This document shows positions 2,902 through 16,021 of a DNA stretch of 64,000 bases, piece after piece. The stretch is from positions 1-64,000 of IMG/VR virus record IMGVR_UViG_3300008108_000057. The stretch is one strand, 5' to 3'. A model generated the notes under the pieces. The model had not been told where the DNA came from. It ran no database searches and saw only the letters and a list, made by a program, of their open reading frames with translations. A program made the position numbers and the translations under genes. This DNA comes from a virus. Every line of letters starts with the position of its first letter. Position 1 is the first letter of the stretch.

Positions 2902-3185
2902 TGGCTACATTTATTGAAGTTGATTCTGTAGAAAAAGGCTGTAAAGTAATCATCAATCTTGATGATATTATTGAGATTGCTCCACTTGCTGCTGGTGGTT
3001 GTGTATTGTTCTTTGCTGATTCTGCTGCTGTTAATGGTAAGTCTGCATATGCCGTAAAAGATAGTTATGAACAATTCAAACAATTTGCAATGCAAACAGT
3101 AACGGCAGAATCTATTTCTGCTCGTTTCCCAACCAAGAAAGAATCAAAAGAGAAAACCGATAAACTGGAGATCCCTAAGTTCTAA
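2901..3185 (+). CDS. Hypothetical protein
   Basis: GGAGG SD, 94-aa ORF. Confidence 0.7.
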   Translation: MATFIEVDSVEKGCKVIINLDDIIEIAPLAAGGCVLFFADSAAVNGKSAYAVKDSYEQFKQFAMQTVTAESISARFPTKKESKEKTDKLEIPKF

Positions 3186-3187
3186 TC

Positions 3188-3796
3188 ATGAACATCTTTT
3201 ATCTACATAATGATCCTGTGAAGTGTGCAGAGATGCACAACGACAAACATTGCATTAAAATGATTCTAGAATACTGTCAGCTACTCTCTACGGCTCACCG
3301 TATTCTAGATGGCACAGAAACTCAAGCCAAATCAAAAACTGGTCGTAATGTTAAGCGTTGGGTACTGAACAATGAGATGGAGAATGTCTACTACTCTGCT
3401 ACTCATATCAGTCACCCATCCGCTGTTTGGGCAAGACAATCGGCAGCAAACTATGATTGGCTTGTTCACTTGTTGATGGCTCTCTGTAAAGAATATACCT
3501 ATCGTTACGGTAAGGTGCATAAGTGTGAGCAGATAGGCCTAGTACAAGCATTGAGAATTCATCCTAAGAATATTCCCAATGATAGAGTATTTACTGAACC
3601 CACACCTGCTATGCCTGAAGATGTAAAAATTTCTGGTGATTCCATTGCTTCTTACAGAAATTATTACATAAATAATAAGACGCATCTTGCATCATGGAAA
3701 GGTAAAGTGAATTCAAGACCTATACCTAAATGGTATACTGAAGGTTGTCTCCAGAAAATGGTTGATATCAACCAAGAACTTGGGTTGTACGCTTAA
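3188..3796 (+). CDS. Pyrimidine-dimer DNA glycosylase (DenV/endonuclease V)-like protein
   Basis: MNIFYL...DKHCIKMILEYCQLLSTAH, HPSAVW, EYTYRYGKVH and PAMP...YRNYY motifs. Confidence 0.7.
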   Translation: MNIFYLHNDPVKCAEMHNDKHCIKMILEYCQLLSTAHRILDGTETQAKSKTGRNVKRWVLNNEMENVYYSATHISHPSAVWARQSAANYDWLVHLLMALCKEYTYRYGKVHKCEQIGLVQALRIHPKNIPNDRVFTEPTPAMPEDVKISGDSIASYRNYYINNKTHLASWKGKVNSRPIPKWYTEGCLQKMVDINQELGLYA

Positions 3797-3811
3797 AAAA
3801 AATTTCAAATT

Positions 3812-3829
3812 GTGACAGTTCCGTTACTT
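3812..3829 (-). promoter_or_regulatory. Putative Pho box (PhoB site) upstream of pstS
   Basis: Minus strand reads AAGTAAC-GGAA-CTGTCAC, 11-nt-period repeat resembling CTGTCAT-N4-CTGTCAC; 36 nt upstream of pstS ATG. Confidence 0.55.
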
Positions 3830-3865
3830 TTTGAGTGTTTAAGCAGTTCAACCAAAGGAGATAAC

Positions 3866-4897
3866 ATGAAATTCAAAAAAGTATTAGCAGCATCCTTCCT
3901 ATTTCTCTCTACGGTTGTATCAGCAGCAGAATTTACTGGTGCAGGTGCAACCTTTCCTTTCCCAATCTATGCTAAGTGGGCTGAAGCATACAAAGCACAA
4001 ACTGGCATTGGTCTAAACTATCAATCAATCGGTTCTGGTGGTGGTATTCGTCAAATCAAAGCCAAGACAGTTGACTTTGGCGCAAGTGATATGCCATTGA
4101 AGCAAGACGAATTAGATAAAGAAGGACTGATGCAGTTTCCTGCAATCATCGGTGGTGTTGTGCCTGTATTTAATCTAGATGGTATTGAATCGGGCAAACT
4201 AAAACTCACACCTGAGATTATTGCAAATATTCATTTAGGTAAAATTACAAAATGGAATGATAAAGCAATTGCAGAAATCAATCCTGGTGTTAATCTACCT
4301 GCAATGAATATTACTGTTGTGCATCGTGCAGATGGTTCAGGGACTACATTTATCTGGACAAACTTTTTAGGCAAAGCCAATGCAGAATTTGCCAAAGCAG
4401 TAGGTGAAGGTACAGCAGTTAAATGGCCAGTGGGTGTAGGCGGTAAAGGCAATGAAGGTGTTGCAGCACAAGTACAAAGACTGAAAGGTGCGTTTGGTTA
4501 TGTTGAATATGCATATGCAAAGAGAAATAAAATTCCTTATGCATCACTAAAAAATCGTGATGGTAATTTTGTATCACCTGATGATTCTACATTCAAAGCA
4601 GCAGCCGCAAATGCAGATTGGAAAAATGCACCAGGTATGTATTTGTTACTCACATGGCAAACAGGTAAGGATGCTTGGCCAGCAACAGGTGCAAGTTTCA
4701 TTCTTATGCACAAGCAACAAGCAGATACACTAACAGGTCGTGCAGTTCTCAAATTCTTTGATTGGTCATACAAGAATGGTGCTCAGATGGCAACTGAACT
4801 AGAATATGTTCATATGCCACAAGACGTAATCAAACTTGTACAAGACAACTGGCGTAAGGATCTAAAAGGTCCTGACGGTAACCCAATCTGGAAGTGA
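3866..4897 (+). CDS. pstS: Phosphate ABC transporter substrate-binding protein
   Basis: Signal peptide; TGAGATFP, YQSIGSGGG, DFGASD, HRADGSGTT; AAGGAG SD places start at 3866. Confidence 0.97.
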   Translation: MKFKKVLAASFLFLSTVVSAAEFTGAGATFPFPIYAKWAEAYKAQTGIGLNYQSIGSGGGIRQIKAKTVDFGASDMPLKQDELDKEGLMQFPAIIGGVVPVFNLDGIESGKLKLTPEIIANIHLGKITKWNDKAIAEINPGVNLPAMNITVVHRADGSGTTFIWTNFLGKANAEFAKAVGEGTAVKWPVGVGGKGNEGVAAQVQRLKGAFGYVEYAYAKRNKIPYASLKNRDGNFVSPDDSTFKAAAANADWKNAPGMYLLLTWQTGKDAWPATGASFILMHKQQADTLTGRAVLKFFDWSYKNGAQMATELEYVHMPQDVIKLVQDNWRKDLKGPDGNPIWK

Positions 4898-4904
4898 GGA
4901 CAAA

Positions 4905-6311
4905 ATGAAACTATTTAAAAAACTTTCTATCGTAGTTGCACTAGCCGCAGTAATTCCTGCATATGCTGATGAGTATAAAGAAACATTGAATATTCTCAGA
5001 GAGAAGAATGTAATCACTCAAAAAGAATATGAATCAAAACTCAAAGCATATGAAGAAAGAGAAGAAAACAAAAAGTTTGCAGAACAGCGAATTGACAAAG
5101 ACGTTAGCGATTCAGTCAAATATAGACAAGCCAGAGCAAACGATGGTTCAGTCACAGAAAATGGAATCGGACTTAAATCAAAAGATGGTAACAACACCAT
5201 TCAATTTACAGGTCGATTACATATGGACTATCGACAGTACACACCAAATTACGGTGTCGGTCAAACCACGGATTCGTATCAAAACGTAGCAGAGATGCGC
5301 CGTGGTAGATTTGGTGTTCGTGGACAATTCGCAAAAGACATCAAATATGAATTCTCTGGTAACTTTGGTAATGATGTCGGTGCAGCATCTTCATCAACCA
5401 CAATGGATGTTGCATGGGTAAACTATGCAGCCAATCCAGAACTACAATACCAATTCGGTTTATTCAAGATGCCATTCAGTCTTGAGCAACTGCAAAGTTC
5501 CAACAATCTTGATATGATGGAGCGTAGTTTGATTGGTCAAGTTGAAGGTGAATTTATTCCTGGTAAAGAAACTGGTTTTATGATTCACGGTATTCCTAAG
5601 CCTGGTTTGACATACGCTATTGCAGCAAGTCGTGGTCGTGCTAACAAAGACGCTGTGTCGGATGGATTTGATTATATTGGCCGTGTGACTACAAACATTG
5701 CTGAACTACAAGGTAGCAAAGCATATACACTACACTTAGGTGCTGCATATAGTACAGGTGAAATCAAAGGTGGTGTTGCACCAGCAAGTGGCAGAACAGA
5801 AGCACGTTCACAAAATGCTTGGTTCACTGGCTCTGCATTAGGTGGTGTAACTGAGAGAACCCGTCAAGGCCTTGAAGCAGCATTTGCATATAATGCTTTG
5901 AAAGTACAAGCAGAACAATTTAATTTCATATATGATCCTACAACAGGAAACAATCAAGAAATTAAAGGCTATTATGTTCTTGCAGCATACAATCTGACTG
6001 GTGAATCATATAACTACAAAGATGGTGTATTTGGTGCAATCAAACCTGCTAATCCTTTAGACAAAGGTGGTAAAGGTGCCGTGCAAGTCAATGTGCGTAT
6101 GAGTGAGTTTGATGCCAGCAATATCACAGTTGCTACTGGTAAATCAAATCGTGCTACTGCCATGACCTATGGTATCACATGGTTTGTTACCGATAATATG
6201 CGTTTCATGGTGAACTATGTTGACACTAAATTTGATGCACTTGTAGGTAGCTCAGGTAGCCGTGTGAATGGTGACCGTGCTATTATGTTTAGAAGCCAAC
6301 TAAACTTCTAA
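4905..6311 (+). CDS. Phosphate-selective porin (OprO/OprP family)
   Basis: Signal peptide, GRLHMDY, EMRRGRFG, FKMPFSLE, ERS motifs, C-terminal Phe; directly after pstS. Confidence 0.9.
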   Translation: MKLFKKLSIVVALAAVIPAYADEYKETLNILREKNVITQKEYESKLKAYEEREENKKFAEQRIDKDVSDSVKYRQARANDGSVTENGIGLKSKDGNNTIQFTGRLHMDYRQYTPNYGVGQTTDSYQNVAEMRRGRFGVRGQFAKDIKYEFSGNFGNDVGAASSSTTMDVAWVNYAANPELQYQFGLFKMPFSLEQLQSSNNLDMMERSLIGQVEGEFIPGKETGFMIHGIPKPGLTYAIAASRGRANKDAVSDGFDYIGRVTTNIAELQGSKAYTLHLGAAYSTGEIKGGVAPASGRTEARSQNAWFTGSALGGVTERTRQGLEAAFAYNALKVQAEQFNFIYDPTTGNNQEIKGYYVLAAYNLTGESYNYKDGVFGAIKPANPLDKGGKGAVQVNVRMSEFDASNITVATGKSNRATAMTYGITWFVTDNMRFMVNYVDTKFDALVGSSGSRVNGDRAIMFRSQLNF

Positions 6312-6366
6312 TTATATAAATCGGTCACAATGATAAGGTGACTCTGGACCCGTAACCAGAACTAAT

Positions 6367-7182
6367 ATGCAAAAAACATACCGTAGTATTTTTATATCCG
6401 ACGTTCATTTAGGAACGAAAGATTGTAAAGCCGGACATCTTAACAATTTTCTCAAGCATAATACATGTGAAACACTATATCTTGTGGGTGATATAATTGA
6501 TGCGTGGAAAATTAAACAGAATAAATGGCGTTGGAAACAAAGTCACACAAATGTGATTCGCAGAATATTAGGTCATGCTAAGAGAGACACTAGAGTAGTT
6601 TATGTATTGGGAAATCATGATGAGTTTCTCAGACCGTATTTACAATACAATTTAAATTTCGGAATGGTAGAAGTATACAATCAAATAGAACATATTGGTG
6701 CTGATGGTAAACATTATCTTGTGGTACATGGCGATTTGTTTGACGGTATTACAAGGCTAGCCCCTTGGCTTTCATTTTTAGGAGACAAAGCATATGACGC
6801 CGTTTTATCTTTCAATACTAGAATCAATAGCATCTTACATAGAATGGGCTTTGGTTATTTTAGTCTCAGTCGCTATCTTAAACACCGGGTAAAAAAAGCA
6901 GTAGACTTCATGTTTCAATTTGAAACAAATTTAACAGTATATTGTAAGAAAAAAGGATTTGATGGAGTAATTTGTGGGCATATTCATCATGCAGAGATAA
7001 AAGAAATTGATGGTGTTGTTTATATGAATGATGGTGATTGGGTTGAATCGTTGACTGCACTTGTTGAGCATCATGATGGCAGATGGGAAATAGTCACATG
7101 GACACAGGAGAGCGATAATGTGGTTGATGATATTGATAGCGGTACACATAAACAATCCAAAGGACATTCCAGGAAGAATTAA
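6367..7182 (+). CDS. LpxH-like / PlcP-like metallophosphoesterase (putative phospholipase C)
   Basis: ISDVHLG, LVGDIID, GNHDE, HGDLFD, CGHIH, NDGDWVES; GNHD type. Confidence 0.8.
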   Translation: MQKTYRSIFISDVHLGTKDCKAGHLNNFLKHNTCETLYLVGDIIDAWKIKQNKWRWKQSHTNVIRRILGHAKRDTRVVYVLGNHDEFLRPYLQYNLNFGMVEVYNQIEHIGADGKHYLVVHGDLFDGITRLAPWLSFLGDKAYDAVLSFNTRINSILHRMGFGYFSLSRYLKHRVKKAVDFMFQFETNLTVYCKKKGFDGVICGHIHHAEIKEIDGVVYMNDGDWVESLTALVEHHDGRWEIVTWTQESDNVVDDIDSGTHKQSKGHSRKN

Positions 7183-7288
7183 TTTGCAGTTTGAAACACA
7201 ACAACAATGTGAACAAACTTTACAGTCTATGACATACTGGTTGAAGTTTGATAATTTCAAAGTTGAAGGAAAGTGTGTAAAGAGATGA
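7118..7288 (+). CDS. Small secreted/membrane protein, 56 aa, not in ORF track
   Basis: AGGAG SD; MWLMILIAVHINNPKDIPG...CEQ...GKCVKR*; ATGA overlap with GT2. Confidence 0.6.
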   Translation: MWLMILIAVHINNPKDIPGRINLQFETQQQCEQTLQSMTYWLKFDNFKVEGKCVKR

Positions 7289-7995
7289 AACTAAGCGATA
7301 AAATTACTATTGTTATTCCTTGTAGGAACGAAGAAAATTATATAAATCATTTGCTTAATTCTTTACGTCAACAGAAGATAGGTGACACTAGAATTATTAT
7401 TGCCGATTGTTCAACAGATAACACTAGAGAAGTAATAAGAAATAATCGTGCTTTTTTGAATATTGAAATTATTGAAGGTGGTCCTGTTGCAACTGCAAGA
7501 AATAATGCAGCCAAACTAGTTACGACACCTTATATTCTATTCATAGATGCCGATGTAATATTCTTTGATAATTACACAATTCGTGATGCTGTTTTTGAGA
7601 TGGAACACAACAACTTAGATTTGATTGGAGCAAACATCAAGTGTTATGAAGATAATTGGAAAGCAGAACTTGGGTTTATGATTTTCAATAAGATCAATCA
7701 TATACTAAAACATTTCTCTCCTTTTGCTGTTGGTGCATTCATGTTAACTCGCAAGAGTAAGTTTGATGAGTTTGGTGGGTTTCAAGATAAGTTTTTAACG
7801 TCAGAAGATTACTTCCTTTCACGAATGTATGATCCCAAAAAGTTTAAAATAATAAATCACTATTTTGGCCAAGATGCTAGACGATTTAAAAAGATGGGTT
7901 ACTTTGGTATGGCTTGGTACCTCATCAAGAATTTTTGGAATAGAAACAATGAGAAATATTGGAAGAATTTAGATGCTAGTAAGTATTGGAACTAA
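7285..7995 (+). CDS. Glycosyltransferase family 2
   Basis: IVIPCRNEE, STDNT, ARN, FIDAD (DxD), SEDY. Confidence 0.9.
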   Translation: MKLSDKITIVIPCRNEENYINHLLNSLRQQKIGDTRIIIADCSTDNTREVIRNNRAFLNIEIIEGGPVATARNNAAKLVTTPYILFIDADVIFFDNYTIRDAVFEMEHNNLDLIGANIKCYEDNWKAELGFMIFNKINHILKHFSPFAVGAFMLTRKSKFDEFGGFQDKFLTSEDYFLSRMYDPKKFKIINHYFGQDARRFKKMGYFGMAWYLIKNFWNRNNEKYWKNLDASKYWN

Positions 7996-8001
7996 ATATA
8001 C

Positions 8002-8030
8002 TTGACTACTACGTTACAATCATATATAAT
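8002..8030 (+). promoter_or_regulatory. Sigma70-type early promoter
   Basis: TTGACT-17-TATAAT. Confidence 0.7.
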
Positions 8031-8055
8031 TATACTATATTTTATGGAAGATTGA

Positions 8056-8697
8056 ATGATGGAAAATATGCTGAATGTACAAAGTCTTTATCCTTCTAAT
8101 GTGTACTGGATACACAGCCCACAATATCTTGAGATAGCGAAAGAAGTTTCTTATGCCTATCTAGCAGAAACAAAAAAACAATCCACTTGTAATCCTGCAT
8201 ATCCTGTACACATGACAGAGTATATGGATGATTCTAGACTGTATCCAATGGTTGAATATATTTGTGGTACTGGACATAATATCTTAGAATCACAAGGTTA
8301 CAATATGGAAGGATGGGTCGTAACGTGTAGGGAGTTTTGGTGTCAAGAACACGAAAAATATTCTGGTCACGAAGAACATGTACATGGTTTTGGTAATCAA
8401 CTGACAGGAATATATTTCTTAGATGTACCAGAAAATTCTTGTAAGTTTTCTGTATATGATCCAAGACCAGCAAAACGTCAAATTAACATGCCTCCCAAAA
8501 ACGTGAATGAGTTGACCGATGCAAGCACCATTGCTTTTTTTGATCCAAAGCCAGGGATGTTATATTTCACTAATTCATGGTTGCCTCACGGATTTACTAG
8601 AAATGGAAATGACGATTCCTTCACATTTATTCATTTCAATCTAGGTGTAGGAAGAATTAAAAATTATAACCCACCATCCGAAACAATTATCATATGA
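8056..8697 (+). CDS. 2OG-Fe(II) oxygenase (TIGR02466-like)
   Basis: HEEHVH, GIYFL, DPRP, PKPG..FTNSWLPH. Confidence 0.8.
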   Translation: MMENMLNVQSLYPSNVYWIHSPQYLEIAKEVSYAYLAETKKQSTCNPAYPVHMTEYMDDSRLYPMVEYICGTGHNILESQGYNMEGWVVTCREFWCQEHEKYSGHEEHVHGFGNQLTGIYFLDVPENSCKFSVYDPRPAKRQINMPPKNVNELTDASTIAFFDPKPGMLYFTNSWLPHGFTRNGNDDSFTFIHFNLGVGRIKNYNPPSETIII

Positions 8698-8963
8698 ATA
8701 AATATAAGATACGATACAATCAAACAAGAGGTAATCCAGGTAGAGGCACACCTGATCATGTTTGGAGAGTATTTGAAAACAACAGAGAATATCTTTTTAA
8801 GAATGTGACCATCAATGTACCATGTAAAGGTGAATCTGAAGAAGATGGACAACATTGGAATATTGTGTGTCACGGTTACCTTCAAATAGATAGAGTAACC
8901 TCTACTGCGATTATTAATGACAAACCTAATGATATAACACTATGCCAACATACGAATTCTTGA
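8694..8963 (+). CDS. Hypothetical protein
   Basis: ORF with ATGA overlap. Confidence 0.65.
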   Translation: MNKYKIRYNQTRGNPGRGTPDHVWRVFENNREYLFKNVTINVPCKGESEEDGQHWNIVCHGYLQIDRVTSTAIINDKPNDITLCQHTNS

Positions 8964-9217
8964 ACAAAGAAACCAATGAAATTGAAGAACATACTATGAG
9001 AATATCACAGTATGATAAATTCAAAGAACAAAATCCCCACTTAGAAAGATACATAGACGAAGCACCCATCTTAGGTGATGGTATGCGTATGTCTGTTCCT
9101 GGTATTGGTCAACCCGATGCAAGATTTGAAAGAGAGATTATAGGTCGCATCAAAGAAAAAGTTCCACACAATACAGTAAAGCATGGTCACAAAACTAAAA
9201 TGCCTCGTGAATGGTAA
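8942..9217 (+). CDS. FmdB-like small protein (Cys-less variant)
   Basis: MPTYEF N-terminus; position before phoH typical of T4-like phages. Confidence 0.6.
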   Translation: MPTYEFLNKETNEIEEHTMRISQYDKFKEQNPHLERYIDEAPILGDGMRMSVPGIGQPDARFEREIIGRIKEKVPHNTVKHGHKTKMPREW

Positions 9218-9927
9218 AGGAGAAACAATTGGCACCAAGAAAAAGAACAGCAGCAGCAGAAGCCAAATCACAACATTTTTCACTTAAAAAAATAAAGCCT
9301 TTAACAGAGAATCAAGAAAGAACATTTGAAGCATATGAAGCAGGTAATCATTTAGTCTTATCAGGATCAGCAGGGTCAGGTAAATCTTTTCTTGCAATGT
9401 ATCTTGGTCTTAAAGATTTGTTAGACGATGCATCACATTACAACAGAATCATTATCATTCGTTCAGCAGTACCTTCAAGAGATTTAGGATTTGTACCAGG
9501 TACACTTGAAGAAAAAGCAAAGATATATCAAGAACCGTATCAGAACATCGTCAACGAATTGATTGGTCGAGGCGATGCATGGCACTTCTTAATACATAAA
9601 GGAATTGTAGAGTTTCAAACAACCAGCTTTCTAAGAGGTCTAACATTTAGAGATTGTATTATTGTGTTTGATGAATTTCAATCTGCTACATTTCATGAAA
9701 TCGACACAGTATTGACACGCATAGGAGAGAATTGTAGATTTATATTGTGTGGAGATTATAATCAAAATGACCTAAACAATAAGAAAGAGAAGTCTGGCTT
9801 GACGGATGCTGTCCGTATACTAAATAATATCAAAGACGTACATCATATCAAATTTGGATTAGAAGATATCGTCCGAAGTGGTTTCGTCAAAGAATATCTA
9901 ACAGTAAAAGAAAAGCTTGCTTTATAG
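9211..9927 (+). CDS. phoH: PhoH-family ATPase
   Basis: GSAGSGKS, GFVPG, FLRGLTF, DEFQ, LTRIG, GDYNQ, DIVRSG. Confidence 0.95.
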   Translation: MVKEKQLAPRKRTAAAEAKSQHFSLKKIKPLTENQERTFEAYEAGNHLVLSGSAGSGKSFLAMYLGLKDLLDDASHYNRIIIIRSAVPSRDLGFVPGTLEEKAKIYQEPYQNIVNELIGRGDAWHFLIHKGIVEFQTTSFLRGLTFRDCIIVFDEFQSATFHEIDTVLTRIGENCRFILCGDYNQNDLNNKKEKSGLTDAVRILNNIKDVHHIKFGLEDIVRSGFVKEYLTVKEKLAL

Positions 9928-9947
9928 ATTTACAACCTGAGGTAAAG

Positions 9948-10628
9948 ATGCCCATAACAGCCAATAATACGCAAATTACATTTAACGACAATACCAGACA
10001 AGTTACAGCATATCCAACTGCCGCTGTACAAAATCGTATAATGAGAGTGTATGAAGGACCATCTGTTACGGCCAATACTACTGGAACTTGGCCTAAACCT
10101 ACAGGGTTAAAAGGAATACAAGTGACCGTTGTTGGTGGTGGTAATCGAGGTGGTAGAGGTACCCCAGGAGTTCCTACTCCCTCAAACTTTAATCAGGCTT
10201 TTGGTGGTGGCGGCGCCGGAGGAACAGCAATAAGATATTATCCAGCACCATCAATACCCGGACCTCAACCATACAGAGCTGGAGGAGCCGCCAATACATC
10301 TTCCTTTGGTGTTGCTCCACTAACAGTTATTTCTGCAACTGCCGGTAACACCGGAACAGCTTTTTCGGGAGGTACTGGTGGTATCGGTACAAATGGAGAC
10401 ATTAATATTAGAGGTGGTTCAGGAGGAAGAGCAGCAAACCTCATATCAGGACTGTATAATGGAGGAGTTGGTGGAATGTCATCCTTAGGTGGTGGAGGTG
10501 CATCAGGTAGTGATGGAAACAAATACGGTGGAGGTGGTGGCGGTGCCTCTGGATGTGGCATACCAGGAATTCCTAATTCCTTCGGCCTCGGAGGTGTAGG
10601 TGTTGTTATAATTGAAGAATACTATTAA
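9948..10628 (+). CDS. Glycine-rich domain protein, paralog 1
   Basis: MPITANNTQITFND start; VTVVGGG; poly-Gly; GVVIIEEYY end. Confidence 0.8.
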   Translation: MPITANNTQITFNDNTRQVTAYPTAAVQNRIMRVYEGPSVTANTTGTWPKPTGLKGIQVTVVGGGNRGGRGTPGVPTPSNFNQAFGGGGAGGTAIRYYPAPSIPGPQPYRAGGAANTSSFGVAPLTVISATAGNTGTAFSGGTGGIGTNGDINIRGGSGGRAANLISGLYNGGVGGMSSLGGGGASGSDGNKYGGGGGGASGCGIPGIPNSFGLGGVGVVIIEEYY

Positions 10629-10676
10629 TATCAATAAAATAAATACGAAAACACTACTCGAAAAATAATATTAAAA

Positions 10677-11360
10677 ATGCCCATAACAGCCAATAATACA
10701 CAAATTACATTTAATGATGGTACGGTACAAACCGTGCCTTATTATGTCGGTGGTACTCCTAGAATGTTTAGCTATACTTCTGATACCACTTATACTAAAG
10801 CACCAGGTGTAAAGGCAATAAAAGTTACTGCGGTGGGCGCTGGCGGTCCTGGGAGAGGTAATATTGATGCGAATACATCAAGTGGAGGTGGTGGTGGAGG
10901 AGGTGCAGTTGTCATAATATATCCTGGCCCAAGCATAGTTGAACCTATATCAATTATTGTTAGTTCTTCAAATACAACCTTTGGTGGACCATCAACAGGA
11001 CCTGCATCGGCACAGTCAGTTCAGATTATAGCATATGCTGGTAGCGGTAATACACTTCCTGATGTAGCTAATAATCGATCTGGTGGAGCAGCAGGATATG
11101 GTTGCGTACCTATTGCTAATCCACTTAAGAGTTCAGCACTAACTATGTGGGGACAGGCGGGAGAATCAGGACGTAGTATATCAAGTAATGTAACAACTTG
11201 GTCTGGTATTGGAGGTAGCTCTATTTTAGGTGGTGGGGGTGCTATTGGATTACCAGGAACTGGTTACGGTGGAGGTGGTGGAGGTGCAAACACAGCCTCA
11301 CCTAATATTTCCGCAGGTTCGGGTGCACCGGGTATCGTCATAATTGAAGAATTTTTTTAA
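10677..11360 (+). CDS. Glycine-rich domain protein, paralog 2
   Basis: Same 14-aa N-terminus; GIVIIEEFF end; AATAAATA upstream. Confidence 0.8.
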   Translation: MPITANNTQITFNDGTVQTVPYYVGGTPRMFSYTSDTTYTKAPGVKAIKVTAVGAGGPGRGNIDANTSSGGGGGGGAVVIIYPGPSIVEPISIIVSSSNTTFGGPSTGPASAQSVQIIAYAGSGNTLPDVANNRSGGAAGYGCVPIANPLKSSALTMWGQAGESGRSISSNVTTWSGIGGSSILGGGGAIGLPGTGYGGGGGGANTASPNISAGSGAPGIVIIEEFF

Positions 11361-11371
11361 AGAGTTAAGAA

Positions 11372-12106
11372 ATGCCAATAACATTTAGCAATACTGAAAT
11401 TATATTTAATAATCAGCCTTGTGGACAAACAACAGCATATTGTAATCCAGTTGGTAGTAGTATAACAAGGTATTACACAGCATCAGGTCCAGGAACTTGG
11501 CCTAGACCTAATATAACAGGTGAGAATTCATTAAAGGCAATAAAGGTTACTGTAGTTGGTGCTGGTGGACCAAATGCCGTTCTTCCTGGACCAGGTGCAG
11601 AACAAGGTGCTGGTGGAGGTGCTGGTGGTGGGGCAGCAATTAAATATTATCCTGGTCCATCAATACCTGGTCCTCAACCTTATGTTGTTGGTACATCATT
11701 ACCTGGCCCAGGCGTGACGCAAGCAAATGGAACTTCTTCCTTTGGGGCAGCACCACTAACTGTTGTTTCAGCCACAGCAGGAGATTCGGGTTCTAGTATA
11801 TATGCCGGCATAAATGCAGGGTCTGGATCGGGAGGAGATGTCAATTTTACTGGTGGTGCAGGCACCCAGGGTCTTAGACAATTAACACCAATATCATTCA
11901 ACGCCGTTGGTGGTCAAGGAGGAAGTTCCATTTTTGGTGGAGGAGGCCGTTTTATTTCACCGGGAACTCCTGCACTTTCTACAGTTGCTTATGGTGCTGG
12001 TGGTCATGGTGGTGTTAACCCTGGTGGACCAGCCATTTCACCCACACCACCATCAGTTCTCGTTCGTGGTGGTGAAGGAATCGTTATAGTTGAAGAATTT
12101 TATTGA
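11372..12106 (+). CDS. Glycine-rich domain protein, paralog 3
   Basis: MPITFSNTEIIFN; YYPGPSIPGPQPY shared with paralog 1; GIVIVEEFY end. Confidence 0.8.
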   Translation: MPITFSNTEIIFNNQPCGQTTAYCNPVGSSITRYYTASGPGTWPRPNITGENSLKAIKVTVVGAGGPNAVLPGPGAEQGAGGGAGGGAAIKYYPGPSIPGPQPYVVGTSLPGPGVTQANGTSSFGAAPLTVVSATAGDSGSSIYAGINAGSGSGGDVNFTGGAGTQGLRQLTPISFNAVGGQGGSSIFGGGGRFISPGTPALSTVAYGAGGHGGVNPGGPAISPTPPSVLVRGGEGIVIVEEFY

Positions 12107-12129
12107 TTAAAAGTAAAAGGTGAATTAAT

Positions 12130-12723
12130 ATGAGTGCCCGTGAACATTTCAACAGACAAGGTGTTTTGCTTTTTAAAAACATAGTATCACCAGAAATATC
12201 AAAGTTTATGACTCATCTGCTGGCGGTAAAAGGTGCGATGGGAGTAGGTGGCGACGATCAAATACCAAACTCAAAAGCAGCAGGTCATGGTGAACTTGCC
12301 TGTGAAACTATTTTAGAAATGGTATGGCCAAGATTAGAGGAAGCGTTAGAGGAAGAACTCTTTCCCACATACTCGTATGCTCGTTTATATGGTAATGATG
12401 ATGAGTTAAAGATACATTCTGATAGACCTTCATGTGAAATATCTGTTACAATACAACTAGGTCGTTCCCATCATTATTCTTGGCCTATATACATGGCAGG
12501 TCACCGTTATGATTTAGCAGAAGGTGATGGTGTTGTATATAAAGGATGTGATCTATTGCATTGGAGAAAGCCATGTGATGGTCCAGAACATTATTATTCT
12601 GGACAAGTATTCTGTCATTTTGTTCGTGCTAATGGTCCATATGCTGAGTTTATTGGTGATAAGAGATGGAATGGACAACATCCTTTTGTAAGAGATCGTA
12701 TGATTGATATGTATAGAAAGTGA
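12130..12723 (+). CDS. 2OG-Fe(II) oxygenase
   Basis: PTYSYARLY, HSDRPSCEIS, GDGVVYKG..HWR, QVFCHFV. Confidence 0.8.
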   Translation: MSAREHFNRQGVLLFKNIVSPEISKFMTHLLAVKGAMGVGGDDQIPNSKAAGHGELACETILEMVWPRLEEALEEELFPTYSYARLYGNDDELKIHSDRPSCEISVTIQLGRSHHYSWPIYMAGHRYDLAEGDGVVYKGCDLLHWRKPCDGPEHYYSGQVFCHFVRANGPYAEFIGDKRWNGQHPFVRDRMIDMYRK

Positions 12724-12730
12724 GTTAATT

Positions 12731-13345
12731 ATGTCACAACAATTGATATTTCCTGTTGCACCATTCAATGCACCGGGGAAAGATGATATTTGTTATTGGG
12801 AAGGATTTCTATCTGATGATGAAATCAACTACATTCTTTCTCGTCCTGAGTGGCATGACCAACATGATGCTCAAATTGGCGCAGATGGTGTTGGACTAGT
12901 GGATAAAGAAAAACGTAGAACCAATGTTTCTTGGATGCGTGTTGATAGAAAAAATCATCACATTTGGGAAAAGATAACAGATGCAATTTGGTCTGCTAAT
13001 CGTCAATTCTTTCAATTTGATCTAACGGGTTGTTATGAACCAGCACAGCTAGGTGTATATACACAACATGATCAAGGACACTACGATTGGCATACTGATG
13101 CTAGTCTATGCAATTCAAATCATGTTTATAGAAAATTATCAATGTCATTGATGTTAAGTGATCCTTCTGAGTTCGAAGGAGGTGAATTACAAGTCAAATA
13201 TGGTAATGATGATATTAAACAATTGGAACAGAAAAAAGGTCGTGCATGGTTTTTTCCGTCATGGACATTACATCGTGTCACTCCAGTCACTAGAGGTATT
13301 CGCCGCTCACTAGTATTGTGGGTTGGTGGTCCAGGATTTAAATAA
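12731..13345 (+). CDS. 2OG-Fe(II) oxygenase (prolyl-hydroxylase/PKHD-like)
   Basis: YDWHTD, RKLS, FEGGEL, FPSWTLHRVTPVTRGIRRSLV. Confidence 0.9.
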   Translation: MSQQLIFPVAPFNAPGKDDICYWEGFLSDDEINYILSRPEWHDQHDAQIGADGVGLVDKEKRRTNVSWMRVDRKNHHIWEKITDAIWSANRQFFQFDLTGCYEPAQLGVYTQHDQGHYDWHTDASLCNSNHVYRKLSMSLMLSDPSEFEGGELQVKYGNDDIKQLEQKKGRAWFFPSWTLHRVTPVTRGIRRSLVLWVGGPGFK

Positions 13346-14007
13346 TGTTTAACTATTGCCCACCTAAAGAACTACAAGACCTACAATCAGAAACTTTTCC
13401 TGACGGTAAAAGATACTATAAGTTGCCAGATGGTACTAAGTTGCCATCTGTAACTACTGTTGTTGGATCCAAAAAGAAAAAAGCTATCATGGAATGGAGA
13501 GCAAGAGTCGGCGAAGAGGAAGCCAATCGTATCTCTAAACAAGCTACTTCCCGTGGCACTAATGTGCATACTATCTGTGAGAACTATCTAAATAATAAAC
13601 AGGATTATATGAAAGGTGTGATGCCTGATGCTGTTGAGTTTTTTCTCTCAATAAAACCCTATCTGAACAAGATAAACAACATTCATTATCAAGAGCAAGC
13701 GTTGTGGTCTAAAGCAATAGGTATGGCTGGTAGAGTAGATTGTATTGCAGAGTATGACGGAGTACTTTCTGTAATTGATTTTAAGACCTCTGCAAGACCA
13801 AAGAAAAGAGATGATGTATTAGATTATTTCTGGCAAACTACAGCATATGCTTTAATGTATGAAGAACTGATTGGTATCCCTATTGATAACCTGGTTGTTA
13901 TTATGGCAGTTAAAGATTCACCACCAATTATCTTCAAAGAGAGAACTGAGGATCACCTAAACGGTTTAGCAGAAGCCATCAAGTATTATCACCAGAATAA
14001 ACATTGA
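13345..14007 (+). CDS. PD-(D/E)xK exonuclease (T4-like)
   Basis: PSVTT, RGTNVH, AGRVDC, IDFKTS, Q..AYA. Confidence 0.85.
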   Translation: MFNYCPPKELQDLQSETFPDGKRYYKLPDGTKLPSVTTVVGSKKKKAIMEWRARVGEEEANRISKQATSRGTNVHTICENYLNNKQDYMKGVMPDAVEFFLSIKPYLNKINNIHYQEQALWSKAIGMAGRVDCIAEYDGVLSVIDFKTSARPKKRDDVLDYFWQTTAYALMYEELIGIPIDNLVVIMAVKDSPPIIFKERTEDHLNGLAEAIKYYHQNKH

Positions 14008-14032
14008 CATTTAATTAAGATTTTAGTATAGT
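14004..14032 (+). promoter_or_regulatory. Sigma70-type promoter
   Basis: TTGACA-17-TATAGT. Confidence 0.6.
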
Positions 14033-14038
14033 GACTAA

Positions 14039-14605
14039 ATGATAGATTATGTAAAAACTTATGATAACGTTCTATCGAAAGAAGAATGTGAACATATCAT
14101 AAAAAAATTTGAGTCTAATCTCACACATCAGGTAAGAAATTACCATGAAAACCATCATTCTTTTAAACAGATAAACATCAATCACCACATTGATGTTTGG
14201 GGTAGAGAGTTTGAAGTTCTCTTTGGAACAATGCATGAGTATCTAAAAAGATACAAATCGGATCTCAATATTGATGATGAGTCTTGGCCAAATGAAATGT
14301 TGTATGAGCAGTTAAGAATAAAAAGATATTTACCAAATACTGAAGATGAATTTAAATTTCATGTTGATTCTAAAGATTATCTTTCAGCAAGAAGATTTTT
14401 AGCTTATTTTTGGTACTTGAATGACGTTAATGAGGGTGGCGAAACAGTATTTCAATTAAACAGGGAAGTTTCTCCTAGTATAAAAGTTCAACCTAAAACA
14501 GGAAAGTTATTGATGTTTCCTCCTTTATGGACACATCCACACCTTGCTTTGCCTCCTGTTAGTGGACCTAAGTACATTGTTGGAGGATACTTACATTACG
14601 TATAG
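14039..14605 (+). CDS. 2OG-Fe(II) oxygenase
   Basis: FHVD, YLNDVNEGGET, FPPLWTHPH, KYI. Confidence 0.9.
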   Translation: MIDYVKTYDNVLSKEECEHIIKKFESNLTHQVRNYHENHHSFKQININHHIDVWGREFEVLFGTMHEYLKRYKSDLNIDDESWPNEMLYEQLRIKRYLPNTEDEFKFHVDSKDYLSARRFLAYFWYLNDVNEGGETVFQLNREVSPSIKVQPKTGKLLMFPPLWTHPHLALPPVSGPKYIVGGYLHYV

Positions 14606-14614
14606 GAGACAATC

Positions 14615-14704
14615 ATGGGACTAACCATGTTTTTTCTGCTTACCTTTGGTAATGCAGTAAATATCTATTTTGTTGATAAAGCAATAAATGACAGAAACAC
14701 ATAA
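14615..14704 (+). CDS. Possible 29-aa hydrophobic peptide
   Basis: TAGGAG SD; MGLTMFFLLTFGNAVNIYFVDKAINDRNT*. Confidence 0.35.
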   Translation: MGLTMFFLLTFGNAVNIYFVDKAINDRNT

Positions 14705-14897
14705 AAGAACCATAGCAAGAATGATCAGCTATAGAATTACAGCTTGGTTGTTCACTATATTTTACACTTACCTCTTTACAGGTAGTATAGCACAGGCCAC
14801 AGGATTTGCTACGATACTACATATTCTGTTGAGCTTGGACTATTATATACATGAAAGGATTTGGTTAAAAATAAAATGGGGCAAAACCGATAAATAA
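14688..14897 (+). CDS. DUF2061-like small membrane protein
   Basis: ETHKRTIARMISYR...YYIHERIW..IKWG. Confidence 0.75.
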   Translation: MTETHKRTIARMISYRITAWLFTIFYTYLFTGSIAQATGFATILHILLSLDYYIHERIWLKIKWGKTDK

Positions 14898-14902
14898 AAT
14901 AT

Positions 14903-14990
14903 CACACTATTCATCTAGAAGTGGCAAAGGCGACGAAGAAACTAAGATACCGCTGGTCGGTAACGTAGGTGAGAATCCTACATAGTGTGT
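14903..14990 (+). ncRNA. tRNA-like RNA (non-decoding)
   Basis: CACACTAT/ATAGTGTG acceptor-like stem, T-arm GTAGG-TGAGAAT-CCTAC, ATCT/AGAT D-stem with enlarged loop, stunted anticodon arm. Confidence 0.55.
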
Positions 14991-14991
14991 A

Positions 14992-15311
14992 CCGTATTGT
15001 TGTATGAAGTTGACTGAAAGGTGTTCTGGACGGCGGTTCGATTCCGCCCAGCTCCACCAGAAGTGTTGTTTAGGGTGATATGTAAGAGTTTAACAAGACT
15101 CTAAGGATTGGAATTCCCGACCTGTGAACAGCAGGACACTTCTGATGGGGCTGACCTGGTTTCGACAGGGCAATGAGTAAAGAGATGGACAACACGGTAG
15201 GCGATGACCGTAAATCAAGCAAATCTATAAACGCAAATGATGAGCGTTTCGCACTAGCCGCTTAAGCTAGTTGGGGTTTTACCAGTTGTCCTTATTACCC
15301 AATCAACTGGT
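14992..15311 (+). ncRNA. ssrA: Circularly permuted (two-piece) tmRNA
   Basis: T-arm GGCGGTTCGATTCCGCC plus CAGCTCCA-CCA (ends 15059) precedes GGGGCTGACCTGGTTTCGAC (starts 15147); G3:U70 pair; tag ORF ANDERFALAA* at 15233-15265. Confidence 0.93.
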
Positions 15312-15343
15312 TTGAGATTAATTTTTAAATACTTTAGATCACT

Positions 15344-16021
15344 ATGATACCATATAAATTTTTAGACATAGAAAACCATCTTGATATTACAAAACAACTT
15401 GAGTACCTAATGCTCAATGAGTTGTATTTGAATATTCGTCCTAACAATGATGTTCTTTTCACATTTCATCCAACACGACCAGGCCAAAGAAAGTATGATA
15501 TATTAGAACATGGTTTACTTTGGAATTATTTGAATCATGAAGAAGTATTTGAAAGATGTCCTGATTTAAAAGCAGCATTAGATAAACTAGGCGTTGAAGT
15601 CATTTCATGCTCGGTGCTTGTTATAACAGCAGGAGATGGTTCTGGGTTTCGCCTAGGCCTTCATTCTGATGCATCTATAAGTAAAATAGATTACAGAATT
15701 AATTGGCCAATATATCAATGTTTACCTGGTACTACTACAACGATGTACAAGATGAAACCTGATGCGGTTAATCTTTTAACCACTGGAGAAACTCCATATA
15801 AACCACCAAGCCAAGATGTTGTTTCTAAGAATGAAACTGGTATCTATAGAATGTGTGATGTAGAATCTGAAATCACCTCTTTTGTATTTGATCGTCCTCT
15901 ACTGTTCAAATATAACATTCCACATAGGGTATACGATACCGAACCTGGTATTCCATATCCAAGAATTTTACTTTCACTAGACTTCAATGACTGTGATATG
16001 GTAAGAGAGCTTTATCAGTAG
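15344..16021 (+). CDS. Hypothetical protein, possible cupin/2OG-oxygenase fold
   Basis: LHSD, RINWPI, PHRV, RILLS pattern. Confidence 0.55.
   Translation: MIPYKFLDIENHLDITKQLEYLMLNELYLNIRPNNDVLFTFHPTRPGQRKYDILEHGLLWNYLNHEEVFERCPDLKAALDKLGVEVISCSVLVITAGDGSGFRLGLHSDASISKIDYRINWPIYQCLPGTTTTMYKMKPDAVNLLTTGETPYKPPSQDVVSKNETGIYRMCDVESEITSFVFDRPLLFKYNIPHRVYDTEPGIPYPRILLSLDFNDCDMVRELYQ

What the first reader, a model, noticed from the sequence alone, without database searches (positions are those of the whole stretch)
3812..7995. Phage-borne phosphate-starvation cassette: Pho box, pstS, OprO/P porin, PlcP-like phospholipase and glycosyltransferase
Seen: contiguous co-oriented pstS, phosphate porin, LpxH-like GNHD metallophosphoesterase, a 56-aa ORF and a GT2, preceded by a Pho-box-like repeat. 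Established: cyanophages carry Pho-regulated pstS/phoA. In heterotrophic bacteria PlcP (an LpxH-like Mn phosphoesterase with GNHD, versus GNRD in E. coli-type LpxH) strips phospholipid head groups under P limitation, and neighbouring glycosyltransferases turn the diacylglycerol into P-free glycolipids. Inference: the phage may both boost Pi import and mine host membrane phospholipids for phosphate while patching the membrane with glycolipid, i.e. virus-driven lipid remodelling. Caveat: characterised PlcP partners such as Agt are GT4, whereas this is GT2.
Basis: partly seen in the sequence, partly recalled or inferred. Interest (0 to 1): 0.82.

Follow-up and report, generated by a model that had tools for sequence, protein, structure and literature searches.

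The report
Phage phosphate-starvation and lipid-swap cassette
A large freshwater phage carries, behind a phosphate-starvation control site, genes for phosphate capture plus a true relative of the bacterial enzyme PlcP that strips phosphate head groups from membrane lipids and a sugar-adding enzyme, and the cassette also holds a small, previously undescribed folded RNA.

Summary
Window 3811-7995 holds, co-oriented: a degenerate Pho box, pstS, an OprO/P porin, a metallophosphoesterase, a conserved 56-aa ORF and a 236-aa GT2.

The phosphoesterase is a PlcP, not LpxH. It is 53% identical to P. aeruginosa PlcP (PA3219) and 47% to S. meliloti SMc00171, against 22-29% to five true LpxH. A maximum-likelihood tree puts it inside the PlcP clade (100/100). 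It fails both NCBIfam LpxH cut-offs.

In 80 related viral contigs plcP and the small ORF are always linked. The slot behind them holds either this GT2 (39 loci) or an Agt-like GT4 (32 loci), never both. Relatives carry canonical Pho boxes before pstS and plcP.

A new point: a ~47-nt two-hairpin RNA (6314-6365) sits between porin and plcP. It shows strong covariation and a loop-loop tertiary pair, has no Rfam match, occurs once in the 163-kb genome, and in relatives punctuates the same cassette.

Phage plcP appeared in no paper I could search. This scan has already reported the cassette on at least seven other phage genomes, but not the RNA. No expression or enzyme data exist.

The parts
3811..3827 (+). 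Degenerate Pho box (TGTGAC-N5-CGTTAC, half-sites 11 bp apart). A TTTAAG -10-like hexamer follows 10 nt downstream.
   Evidence: Sequence. The same element sits at the same place in L097, L078, L083 and L092, and directly before plcP in L090. Other relatives have canonical boxes plus TAAATA.
3866..4897 (+). pstS, periplasmic phosphate-binding protein with an N-terminal signal peptide.
   Evidence: NCBIfam NF008171 at 432 bits (cut-off 339) and TIGR00975 at 379 bits. Hydrophobic N-terminus.
4905..6311 (+). OprO/OprP-family phosphate-selective outer-membrane porin with a signal peptide.
   Evidence: Pfam PF07396 at 153 bits. ESM Atlas nearest clusters are all OprO/OprP. Signal-like N-terminus.
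6314..6365 (+). Structured RNA motif. P1 is 6324-6328 with 6338-6342; P2 is 6343-6347 with 6356-6360; the tertiary pair is G6337-C6350. The plcP ATG follows 6 nt after P2 with no Shine-Dalgarno sequence.
   Evidence: Covariance model R1 scores 67 bits and finds a single copy in the 163-kb genome. Covariation is shown. No Rfam match at E<=5. The MFE fold gives the same two hairpins.
6367..7182 (+). plcP: PlcP-family Mn-dependent metallophosphoesterase (phospholipase C type), with ligands D12, H14, D42, N83, H121, H205, H207 and GNHD at 82-85.
   Evidence: blastp and alignment, tree, invariant columns, LpxH-like fold, and failed LpxH cut-offs.
7118..7288 (+). Conserved 56-aa ORF of unknown function that overlaps the variable 3' tail of plcP. 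It has a hydrophobic N-terminus (MWLMILIAVH) and two conserved Cys.
   Evidence: Present in 75 of 75 viral loci with enough sequence. 64 distinct sequences were aligned. No Pfam or NCBIfam hit. Not seen next to cellular plcP.
7285..7995 (+). GT2 (GT-A fold) glycosyltransferase of 236 aa, with a DAD motif, a basic-aromatic C-terminal helix and no TM segment.
   Evidence: Pfam PF00535 at 81 bits and PF13506 (GT21) at 31.8 bits, cut-off 21.7. AF2 model pLDDT 94.9. Foldseek matches GT-A enzymes. It shares its slot with Agt-like GT4.
8056..8697 (+). 2OG-Fe(II) oxygenase (TIGR02466-like) behind a strong sigma-70-like promoter at 8002-8030. A neighbour of the cassette, and also next to plcP in Pelagibacter phage Mosig.
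   Evidence: Pfam PF13759, promoter scan, Mosig annotation.
9211..9927 (+). phoH, the common phage Pho-regulon marker gene.
   Evidence: Pfam PF02562 at 168 bits.

Best explanation
This is a Pho-regulated accessory operon of a T4-like freshwater phage whose host is probably a betaproteobacterium. When the infected cell is phosphate-starved, host PhoB is expected to drive transcription from the Pho box. PstS and an OprO/P porin are exported and raise phosphate capture. The PlcP-type enzyme cleaves the phospho-head groups from host glycerophospholipids, giving diacylglycerol plus phospho-alcohols, which host phosphatases can turn into phosphate for phage DNA synthesis. The glycosyltransferase then converts the diacylglycerol into phosphorus-free glycolipid, so the membrane holds until lysis. 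A conserved 56-aa protein always accompanies PlcP and is probably its partner or regulator. A small structured RNA is co-transcribed between porin and plcP and probably acts after transcription, on processing, stability or translation, or as a small RNA. Shown here: gene identities, PlcP family membership, linkage, and Pho boxes in relatives. Inferred: enzyme activities, the GT2's acceptor, PhoB control in the real host, and what the small ORF and the RNA do.
For: PstS and the porin pass curated thresholds. The enzyme is 53% identical to PA3219 (5e-90) and 47% to SMc00171 (1e-82), both genetically characterised PlcPs identified by their gene neighbours, but only 22-29% identical to five LpxH. 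In the tree the LpxH and PlcP clades each have 100/100 support, and the window lies in a phage-only subclade inside PlcP. Ralstonia carries both paralogues, and the phage enzyme matches the PlcP one. Homologues occur in Chloroflexota and in Alphaproteobacteria whose genomes have no LpxH above cut-off. Thirteen cellular homologues, plus P. aeruginosa and Parabacteroides, have an Agt-like or other GT directly downstream. Of the 80 viral loci, 39 have the GT2 and 32 an Agt1-like GT4 (37-43% identity) in the same slot, and none has both. Canonical Pho boxes are more than 100-fold enriched before plcP and pstS in relatives. The GT2 has a basic-aromatic terminal helix suited to a membrane interface.
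Against: The window's own Pho box is degenerate, and plcP here has no box of its own. The GT2 has no characterised close relative. Its fold matches are generic GT-A enzymes, the best TM-score being a polyprenyl-phosphate mannosyltransferase, and none of the 68 cellular plcP loci has this GT2 next door. The lid region of the PlcP model, where substrate would bind, is of low confidence. The host is not identified.
Confidence: 0.6

Rival explanations
1. The phosphoesterase is a lipid A enzyme (LpxH or an LpxH2-like paralogue), as databases annotate it, and the phage alters lipid A or LPS synthesis.
For: JGI and GenBank name the homologues LpxH. All 25 best Foldseek hits are LpxH structures.
Against: It scores 40 bits against a cut-off of 134, and 29 against 190, on the two LpxH equivalog models. 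It has GNHD instead of GNRD and a different lid sequence. The tree separates it from LpxH with 100/100 support. Homologues exist in lipid A-free Chloroflexota.
Confidence: 0.03
2. PlcP is real, but the GT2 does not use diacylglycerol. It would glycosylate another acceptor (polyprenyl phosphate, LPS core, a protein or a small molecule), so the phage degrades phospholipid without rebuilding glycolipid, or relies on a host Agt.
For: The best structural match by TM-score is a polyprenyl-phosphate mannosyltransferase, and the other matches act on teichoic acid or polysaccharide. The best NCBIfam match is far below its cut-off. No cellular plcP neighbour is this GT2.
Against: It alternates, never co-occurring, with a bona fide Agt-like GT4 in exactly the same slot in 71 of 75 loci. 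It passes the Pfam GT21 threshold, the family of the processive diacylglycerol glycosyltransferases that Sebastian et al. report next to plcP. No flippase or other Gtr-type partner lies nearby.
Confidence: 0.25
3. The lipid module serves infection mechanics rather than phosphorus economy. Changing the host envelope would block superinfection, change receptor display or prepare lysis.
For: Papers link PlcP-dependent lipid renovation to altered phage adsorption and membrane properties (PMC9804370 and PMC9938194).
Against: The module is physically and, in relatives, regulatorily joined to pstS and the porin behind Pho boxes, with phoH nearby. This fits phosphorus supply better.
Confidence: 0.1
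4. The conserved element at 6314-6365 is not a functional RNA. It would be a DNA-level junction or protein-binding palindrome left by cassette shuffling.
For: It lies at cassette boundaries: after porin, pstS or the GT gene. The thermodynamic z-score is only -1.1.
Against: P1 keeps pairing through five pair types while its sequence changes. A fifth P2 pair has four types. A loop-loop pair switches G-C (34) to A-U (33) with no unpaired case in 68 sequences. Every copy is on the coding strand. A palindromic operator would conserve sequence, not complementarity.
Confidence: 0.1

Closest known systems
Bacterial PlcP-Agt lipid-renovation operon (S. meliloti SMc00171; Phaeobacter MED193; SAR11 HTCC7211; P. 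aeruginosa PA3219-PA3218; B. cenocepacia BCAL2364-2366)
   Same: A PlcP-family enzyme (47-53% identity) is followed by a glycosyltransferase under Pho-box control. Relatives of this phage even carry an Agt orthologue in the same position.
   Different: It is encoded by a virus and fused into one operon with pstS and a porin. It adds an obligatory small ORF not seen next to cellular plcP. Here the partner is a 236-aa GT2, not a GT4. A structured RNA is embedded in the operon.
Pho-regulated pstS/phoA/phoH auxiliary genes of cyanophages and pelagiphages
   Same: Phage-borne pstS and phoH with a Pho box, in a T4-like (Kyanoviridae-like) genome. Pelagibacter phage Mosig and Synechococcus phage S-SRM01 also carry the phosphoesterase, annotated as LpxH.
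   Different: This cassette adds an outer-membrane porin and a lipid module. The host is probably a freshwater betaproteobacterium (beta-type tmRNA).
Phage-encoded oprP in freshwater amoC-phages (bioRxiv 10.64898/2026.06.18.733297)
   Same: Large freshwater phages carry a host-like phosphate-selective porin gene.
   Different: This phage has no amoC. That preprint does not mention pstS, lpxH/plcP, phospholipid or glycosyltransferase in its text.
LpxH (UDP-2,3-diacylglucosamine diphosphatase)
   Same: Same calcineurin-like fold with a helical lid, and the same metal ligands.
   Different: 22-29% identity; GNHD instead of GNRD; a different lid; a separate clade; fails the family cut-offs.
3'-UTR-derived and intercistronic small RNAs; small self-cleaving ribozymes placed between phage genes
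   Same: A compact, conserved RNA that starts just after a stop codon and is followed by a terminator, a tRNA gene or the next start codon.
   Different: It matches none of the 4227 Rfam families and has no hammerhead, twister or pistol core. Whether it acts in cis or in trans, or cleaves itself, is untested.

Membership tests
PlcP (lipid-remodelling phospholipase C) | Sequence closer to characterised PlcP than to LpxH (Sebastian et al. used BLASTP E<1e-40 to MED193 PlcP). | tested here: met
   E = 5e-90 to PA3219 and 1e-82 to SMc00171, against 1e-3 to 1e-6 to five LpxH. MED193 PlcP itself could not be fetched.
PlcP (lipid-remodelling phospholipase C) | Falls inside the clade bounded by characterised PlcPs when rooted with LpxH. 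| tested here: met
   The PlcP clade (100/100) holds SMc00171, PA3219 and all phage rows.
PlcP (lipid-remodelling phospholipase C) | Complete dinuclear metal site with the GNHD signature. | tested here: met
   D12, H14, D42, N83-H84-D85, H121, H205 and H207 are invariant in 20 sequences.
PlcP (lipid-remodelling phospholipase C) | Genomic link to a non-phosphorus-lipid synthesis gene and a Pho box. | tested here: met
   A GT2 or Agt-like GT4 lies downstream in 71 of 75 viral loci. Pho boxes occur in relatives, and a degenerate one lies before the operon here.
PlcP (lipid-remodelling phospholipase C) | Hydrolyses PC, PE or PG to diacylglycerol. | not testable with these tools
   Needs an enzyme assay or complementation.
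LpxH | Score above the NCBIfam equivalog cut-offs (NF003743 at 134 bits; TIGR01854 at 190 bits). | tested here: not met
   40.3 and 28.9 bits.
LpxH | GNRD motif and the LpxH lid sequence. | tested here: not met
   GNHD, and a PlcP-type lid.
Agt (GT4 diacylglycerol glycosyltransferase) | Homology to characterised Agt. | tested here: not met
   No Agt-like match in the window or in the whole 163-kb genome. The gene here is a GT2.
GT2/GT21 GT-A glycosyltransferases | GT-A fold with a DXD motif, and a Pfam score above threshold. | tested here: met
   PF00535 at 81 bits and PF13506 at 31.8 bits (cut-off 21.7). DAD at residues 88-90. Model pLDDT 94.9 with GT-A matches.
GT2/GT21 GT-A glycosyltransferases | Diacylglycerol as acceptor, as in Pgt or cyanobacterial MgdA. 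| not testable with these tools
   There is only indirect support, from slot sharing with Agt-like genes.
OprO/OprP porin | Pfam Porin_O_P above threshold, plus a signal peptide. | tested here: met
   153 bits against 20.9. Hydrophobic N-terminus ending AYA-D.
PstS | NCBIfam equivalog above cut-off. | tested here: met
   432 bits against 339.
Any Rfam RNA family (for 6314-6365) | A covariance-model match. | tested here: not met
   No match at E<=5 in 3000-16000. The only real hits there are tmRNA.

The most novel reading that the evidence does not exclude
The 47-nt two-hairpin RNA with a loop-loop tertiary pair is a new class of sensing or catalytic RNA: a very small riboswitch-like element or a self-cleaving RNA. 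On this reading it is wired into phage phosphate-starvation operons and decides, after transcription, how much PlcP is made or where the polycistronic message is cut. It follows stop codons, precedes terminators, a tRNA gene or an SD-less start codon, and has invariant unpaired nucleotides, as ligand-binding or catalytic cores do.
Probability: 0.15. Interest if true: 0.9.

Novelty: new variant of a known kind. Interest (0 to 1): 0.72.

Why it matters
Lipid renovation through PlcP is a major way in which bacteria cut their phosphorus quota. If phages carry and run it, membrane phospholipid becomes a phosphorus reserve that viruses tap for their DNA. That would change host lipid composition, phosphorus budgets and burst sizes in phosphate-poor lakes. 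The gene is very common: at least 593 IMG/VR contigs and thousands of metagenome proteins. Surveys file it as the lipid A gene lpxH, so its role is being misread. The obligatory small ORF and the alternation between GT2 and GT4 give testable handles on how PlcP is partnered. The cassette-linked RNA is a compact new structured RNA with clear covariation, a good candidate for a new regulatory or catalytic RNA class.

Tried and rejected
- **Naming relatives through the genome search:** family and genus names are not shown for genomes reached through loci, so I could not pick Sinorhizobium, Phaeobacter or SAR11 directly. Chromosomes mislabelled as plasmids in PLSDB gave PA3219 and SMc00171 instead.
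- **Split-RBS idea:** I considered that AAGGUGA in the 3' arm of P1 is a Shine-Dalgarno sequence brought near the AUG by P2. I rejected it because P1 variants (ACGAC, GUGCU) keep the pairing but lose the SD.
- **Guanidine-II-like reading:** I considered ACGR loops and a loop 1 ACGA: loop 2 UCGU kiss. I rejected it because the CG of loop 1 is not conserved.
- **Genome-wide repeat:** the RNA is not a PeSL-like repeat, since there is only one copy in 163 kb.
- **Host-derived element:** the RNA was not found in 150 sampled Burkholderiales genomes, although the filters were strict.
- **amoC-phage:** this is not one, as it has no amoC.


Full report
**What the window is.**
The window is the first 64 kb of a 163,380-bp IMG/VR virus record estimated 98% complete. 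It has about 36% G+C. Its gene content and nearest named relatives are T4-like/Kyanoviridae. It encodes a two-piece beta-type tmRNA at 14946-15328 (Rfam RF01850, 158 bits against a gathering score of 84). Together with an E. coli-type PstS and an OprO/P porin, this points to a betaproteobacterial host. The best 'cellular' matches to the cassette are short contigs in two lake MAGs of unrelated phyla, and they nest among the phage sequences. I read them as binned phage DNA.

**The observation.**
The region holds six co-oriented, tightly packed ORFs.
- pstS starts at ATG 3866, not GTG 3812. AAGGAG lies 8 nt upstream, and it passes the PstS equivalog model (432 bits, cut-off 339).
- ORF 4905-6311 is an OprO/OprP porin (Pfam 153 bits).
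- Both proteins have signal-peptide-like N-termini.
- ORF 6367-7182 is a calcineurin-like phosphoesterase.
- ORF 7118-7288 is the 56-aa ORF.
- The GT2 most likely starts at ATG 7285, giving 236 aa as in all database copies.
- phoH lies 1.2 kb further on.

**Is the phosphoesterase PlcP or LpxH?**
Databases call the homologues LpxH, but the evidence points to PlcP.
- It scores only 40 and 29 bits on the two NCBIfam LpxH equivalogs, whose cut-offs are 134 and 190.
- PLSDB holds some chromosomes labelled as plasmids, and this gave two characterised PlcPs by context. The P. aeruginosa gene lies upstream of a GT1-family gene and cyaB, which identifies it as PA3219-PA3218-PA3217 (Jones et al., PMC8528852). 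The S. meliloti gene lies next to sinR/sinI, which identifies it as SMc00171.
- The window protein is 53% (5e-90) and 47% (1e-82) identical to these two. It is 22-29% identical (1e-3 to 1e-6) to LpxH of E. coli, Ralstonia, Neisseria, Acinetobacter and Legionella.
- One Ralstonia record carries both paralogues, and the phage protein matches the non-LpxH one (52%).
- The alignment shows group-specific signatures: GNHD against GNRD, CGHIH against HGHTHRP, GDWVES, and a different lid. All metal ligands are kept.
- In an ML tree of 71 sequences (LG+C20) the LpxH and PlcP clades are each supported 100/100. SMc00171 and PA3219 bracket the phage sequences, and the window sits in a phage-only clade of 26 rows (99/100).
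- Homologues at 42-47% occur in SAR202/Dehalococcoidia. By general knowledge these lack lipid A; I did not test that here.
- Five homologue-bearing cellular genomes have no LpxH above cut-off.
- 145 of 401 sampled alphaproteobacterial genomes have a homologue.
- The AF2 model (pLDDT 76, lid poorly defined) matches LpxH structures first, as expected for the shared fold.

**Linkage.**
At least 593 IMG/VR contigs encode a 78-91% identical protein, and 80 were fetched.
- All 75 loci with enough downstream sequence have the small ORF. It starts at a fixed distance and overlaps the variable tail of plcP by 59-134 nt.
- Its 64 distinct sequences share a hydrophobic N-terminus (MWLMILIAVH), a P-x-D-x-PG turn and two Cys, so it is a real gene.
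- It is absent next to the 68 cellular homologues.
- The next slot holds the GT2 in 39 loci and an Agt1-like GT4 in 32 loci (37-43% identical to P. aeruginosa Agt1, E 1e-61 to 1e-76). None has both, and 4 have neither.
- Thirteen cellular loci (Rhodobiaceae, Parvibaculales, SAR202, Verrucomicrobiota) have the Agt-like gene right after the PlcP homologue. Parabacteroides has another GT there.
- pstS-porin lies upstream in 13-20 loci, and downstream in three.
- This phage has no Agt-like gene anywhere in its genome.

**The GT2.**
It is a confident GT-A model (pLDDT 94.9) with a DAD motif. Its terminal helix (RRFKKMGYFGMAWYLIKNFW) is basic and aromatic, and there is no TM segment. Structural matches are generic (TarS, TarP, K4CP). 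The best TM-score (0.72) is to a polyprenyl-phosphate mannosyltransferase. It passes the Pfam GT21 threshold. By my own knowledge of the literature, not tested here, GT21 includes the processive diacylglycerol glycosyltransferase. Sebastian et al. describe processive diacylglycerol glycosyltransferases next to plcP as their types 3 and 5 (PMC4796936). The context of its 40-47% relatives could not be read. The claim that it glycosylates diacylglycerol therefore rests on the slot it shares with Agt. I put it at roughly 55-60%.

**Pho control.**
The window's element TGTGAC-N5-CGTTAC (3811-3827) is weak by itself. It recurs at the same place in close relatives, and in L090, which lacks pstS-porin, it lies directly before plcP. 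More distant relatives have textbook boxes, for example CTGTAAC-aata-CTGTAAC, followed 10-12 nt later by TAAATA. The strict pattern occurs 57 times in 1.79 Mb of both strands, and about 40 of those sites lie in the short regions before plcP (29 of 67) or pstS (11 of 17). PhoB binding itself is untested.

**An unexpected RNA.**
In the window and in 26 of the 80 loci, plcP is preceded not by a Pho box but by a conserved ~47-nt element.
- A pattern scan and a covariance model found 68 distinct copies.
- The 12 proposed pairs are 92.8% paired, with a covariation score of 0.441 against 0.161 in shuffles (0 of 500) and at most 0.128 when partners are slid.
- P1 pair 12-30 shows five pair types. A fifth P2 pair shows four. 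A loop 1-loop 2 pair is G-C in 34 sequences, A-U in 33 and G-U in one, and is never unpaired.
- Unpaired AAUCG, GAU and CGUAA are nearly invariant.
- No Rfam family matches.
- The phage genome has exactly one copy. Of the 80 loci, 51 have one copy each, always on the coding strand.
- The motif starts 0-16 nt after the stop codon of porin, pstS, GT2 or Agt. It is followed by the plcP start codon (27 cases, no SD) or by an intrinsic terminator (about 25 cases). Some copies follow a Pho-box/TAAATA promoter directly and end in a terminator, like a stand-alone small-RNA gene. Two lie 8 nt before a tRNA-Pro gene.
- It was not found in 150 sampled Burkholderiales genomes.

I conclude that it is a functional RNA tied to the Pho cassette. 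Whether it is a processed small RNA, a protein-binding or stability element, a ribozyme or a sensor is open.

**Known or new.**
I found no paper linking PlcP to a phage. Papers that list lpxH among viral auxiliary genes exist. Phage oprP is reported in a 2026 preprint on amoC-phages, but this phage has no amoC. This scan has already reported the same cassette on at least seven other phage genomes with the same reading. None of those notes mentions this RNA. One describes a different plcP leader (e1-5931524).

**Limits.**

Noticed in passing
window 14946-15328 (+): The phage encodes a two-piece (permuted) betaproteobacterial-type tmRNA: Rfam RF01850 at 158 bits, and ARAGORN gives the tag ANDERFALAA. 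This is a clue to the host and a possible way for the phage to handle stalled ribosomes.
   Followed up: partly
L128 and L138, about 50 nt upstream of plcP: A third, different conserved leader: a long hairpin, GCAAGGTG...CACCTTGC, replaces both the Pho box and the two-hairpin motif.
   Followed up: no
Many loci, e.g. L103, L106, L122, just upstream of plcP: In Pho-box-type promoters the TAAATA hexamer ends only 4-6 nt before the ATG. The plcP mRNA may therefore be leaderless in those phages.
   Followed up: no
L192:3407-3459 and L201:11877-11929: The two-hairpin RNA motif lies 8 nt upstream of a tRNA-Pro(UGG) gene, which suggests co-transcription and processing.
   Followed up: no
L003 (Haliscomenobacter MAG), L004 (Polynucleobacter MAG), L005: Contigs carrying plcP and the GT2 in MAGs of unrelated phyla nest inside the phage clade. 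These are probably phage contigs binned into bacterial MAGs.
   Followed up: partly
window 39815-48874 (+): A single 3019-aa ORF lies in the structural region.
   Followed up: no
L283 (Mitsuaria sp. 7): The cellular PlcP homologue sits beside ppk1 and ppx (polyphosphate kinase and exopolyphosphatase), another phosphorus-linked context.
   Followed up: no
window 8002-8030 (+): A near-consensus sigma-70 promoter (TTGACT-17-TATAAT) lies before the 2OG-Fe(II) oxygenase gene. That gene also neighbours plcP in Pelagibacter phage Mosig.
   Followed up: no
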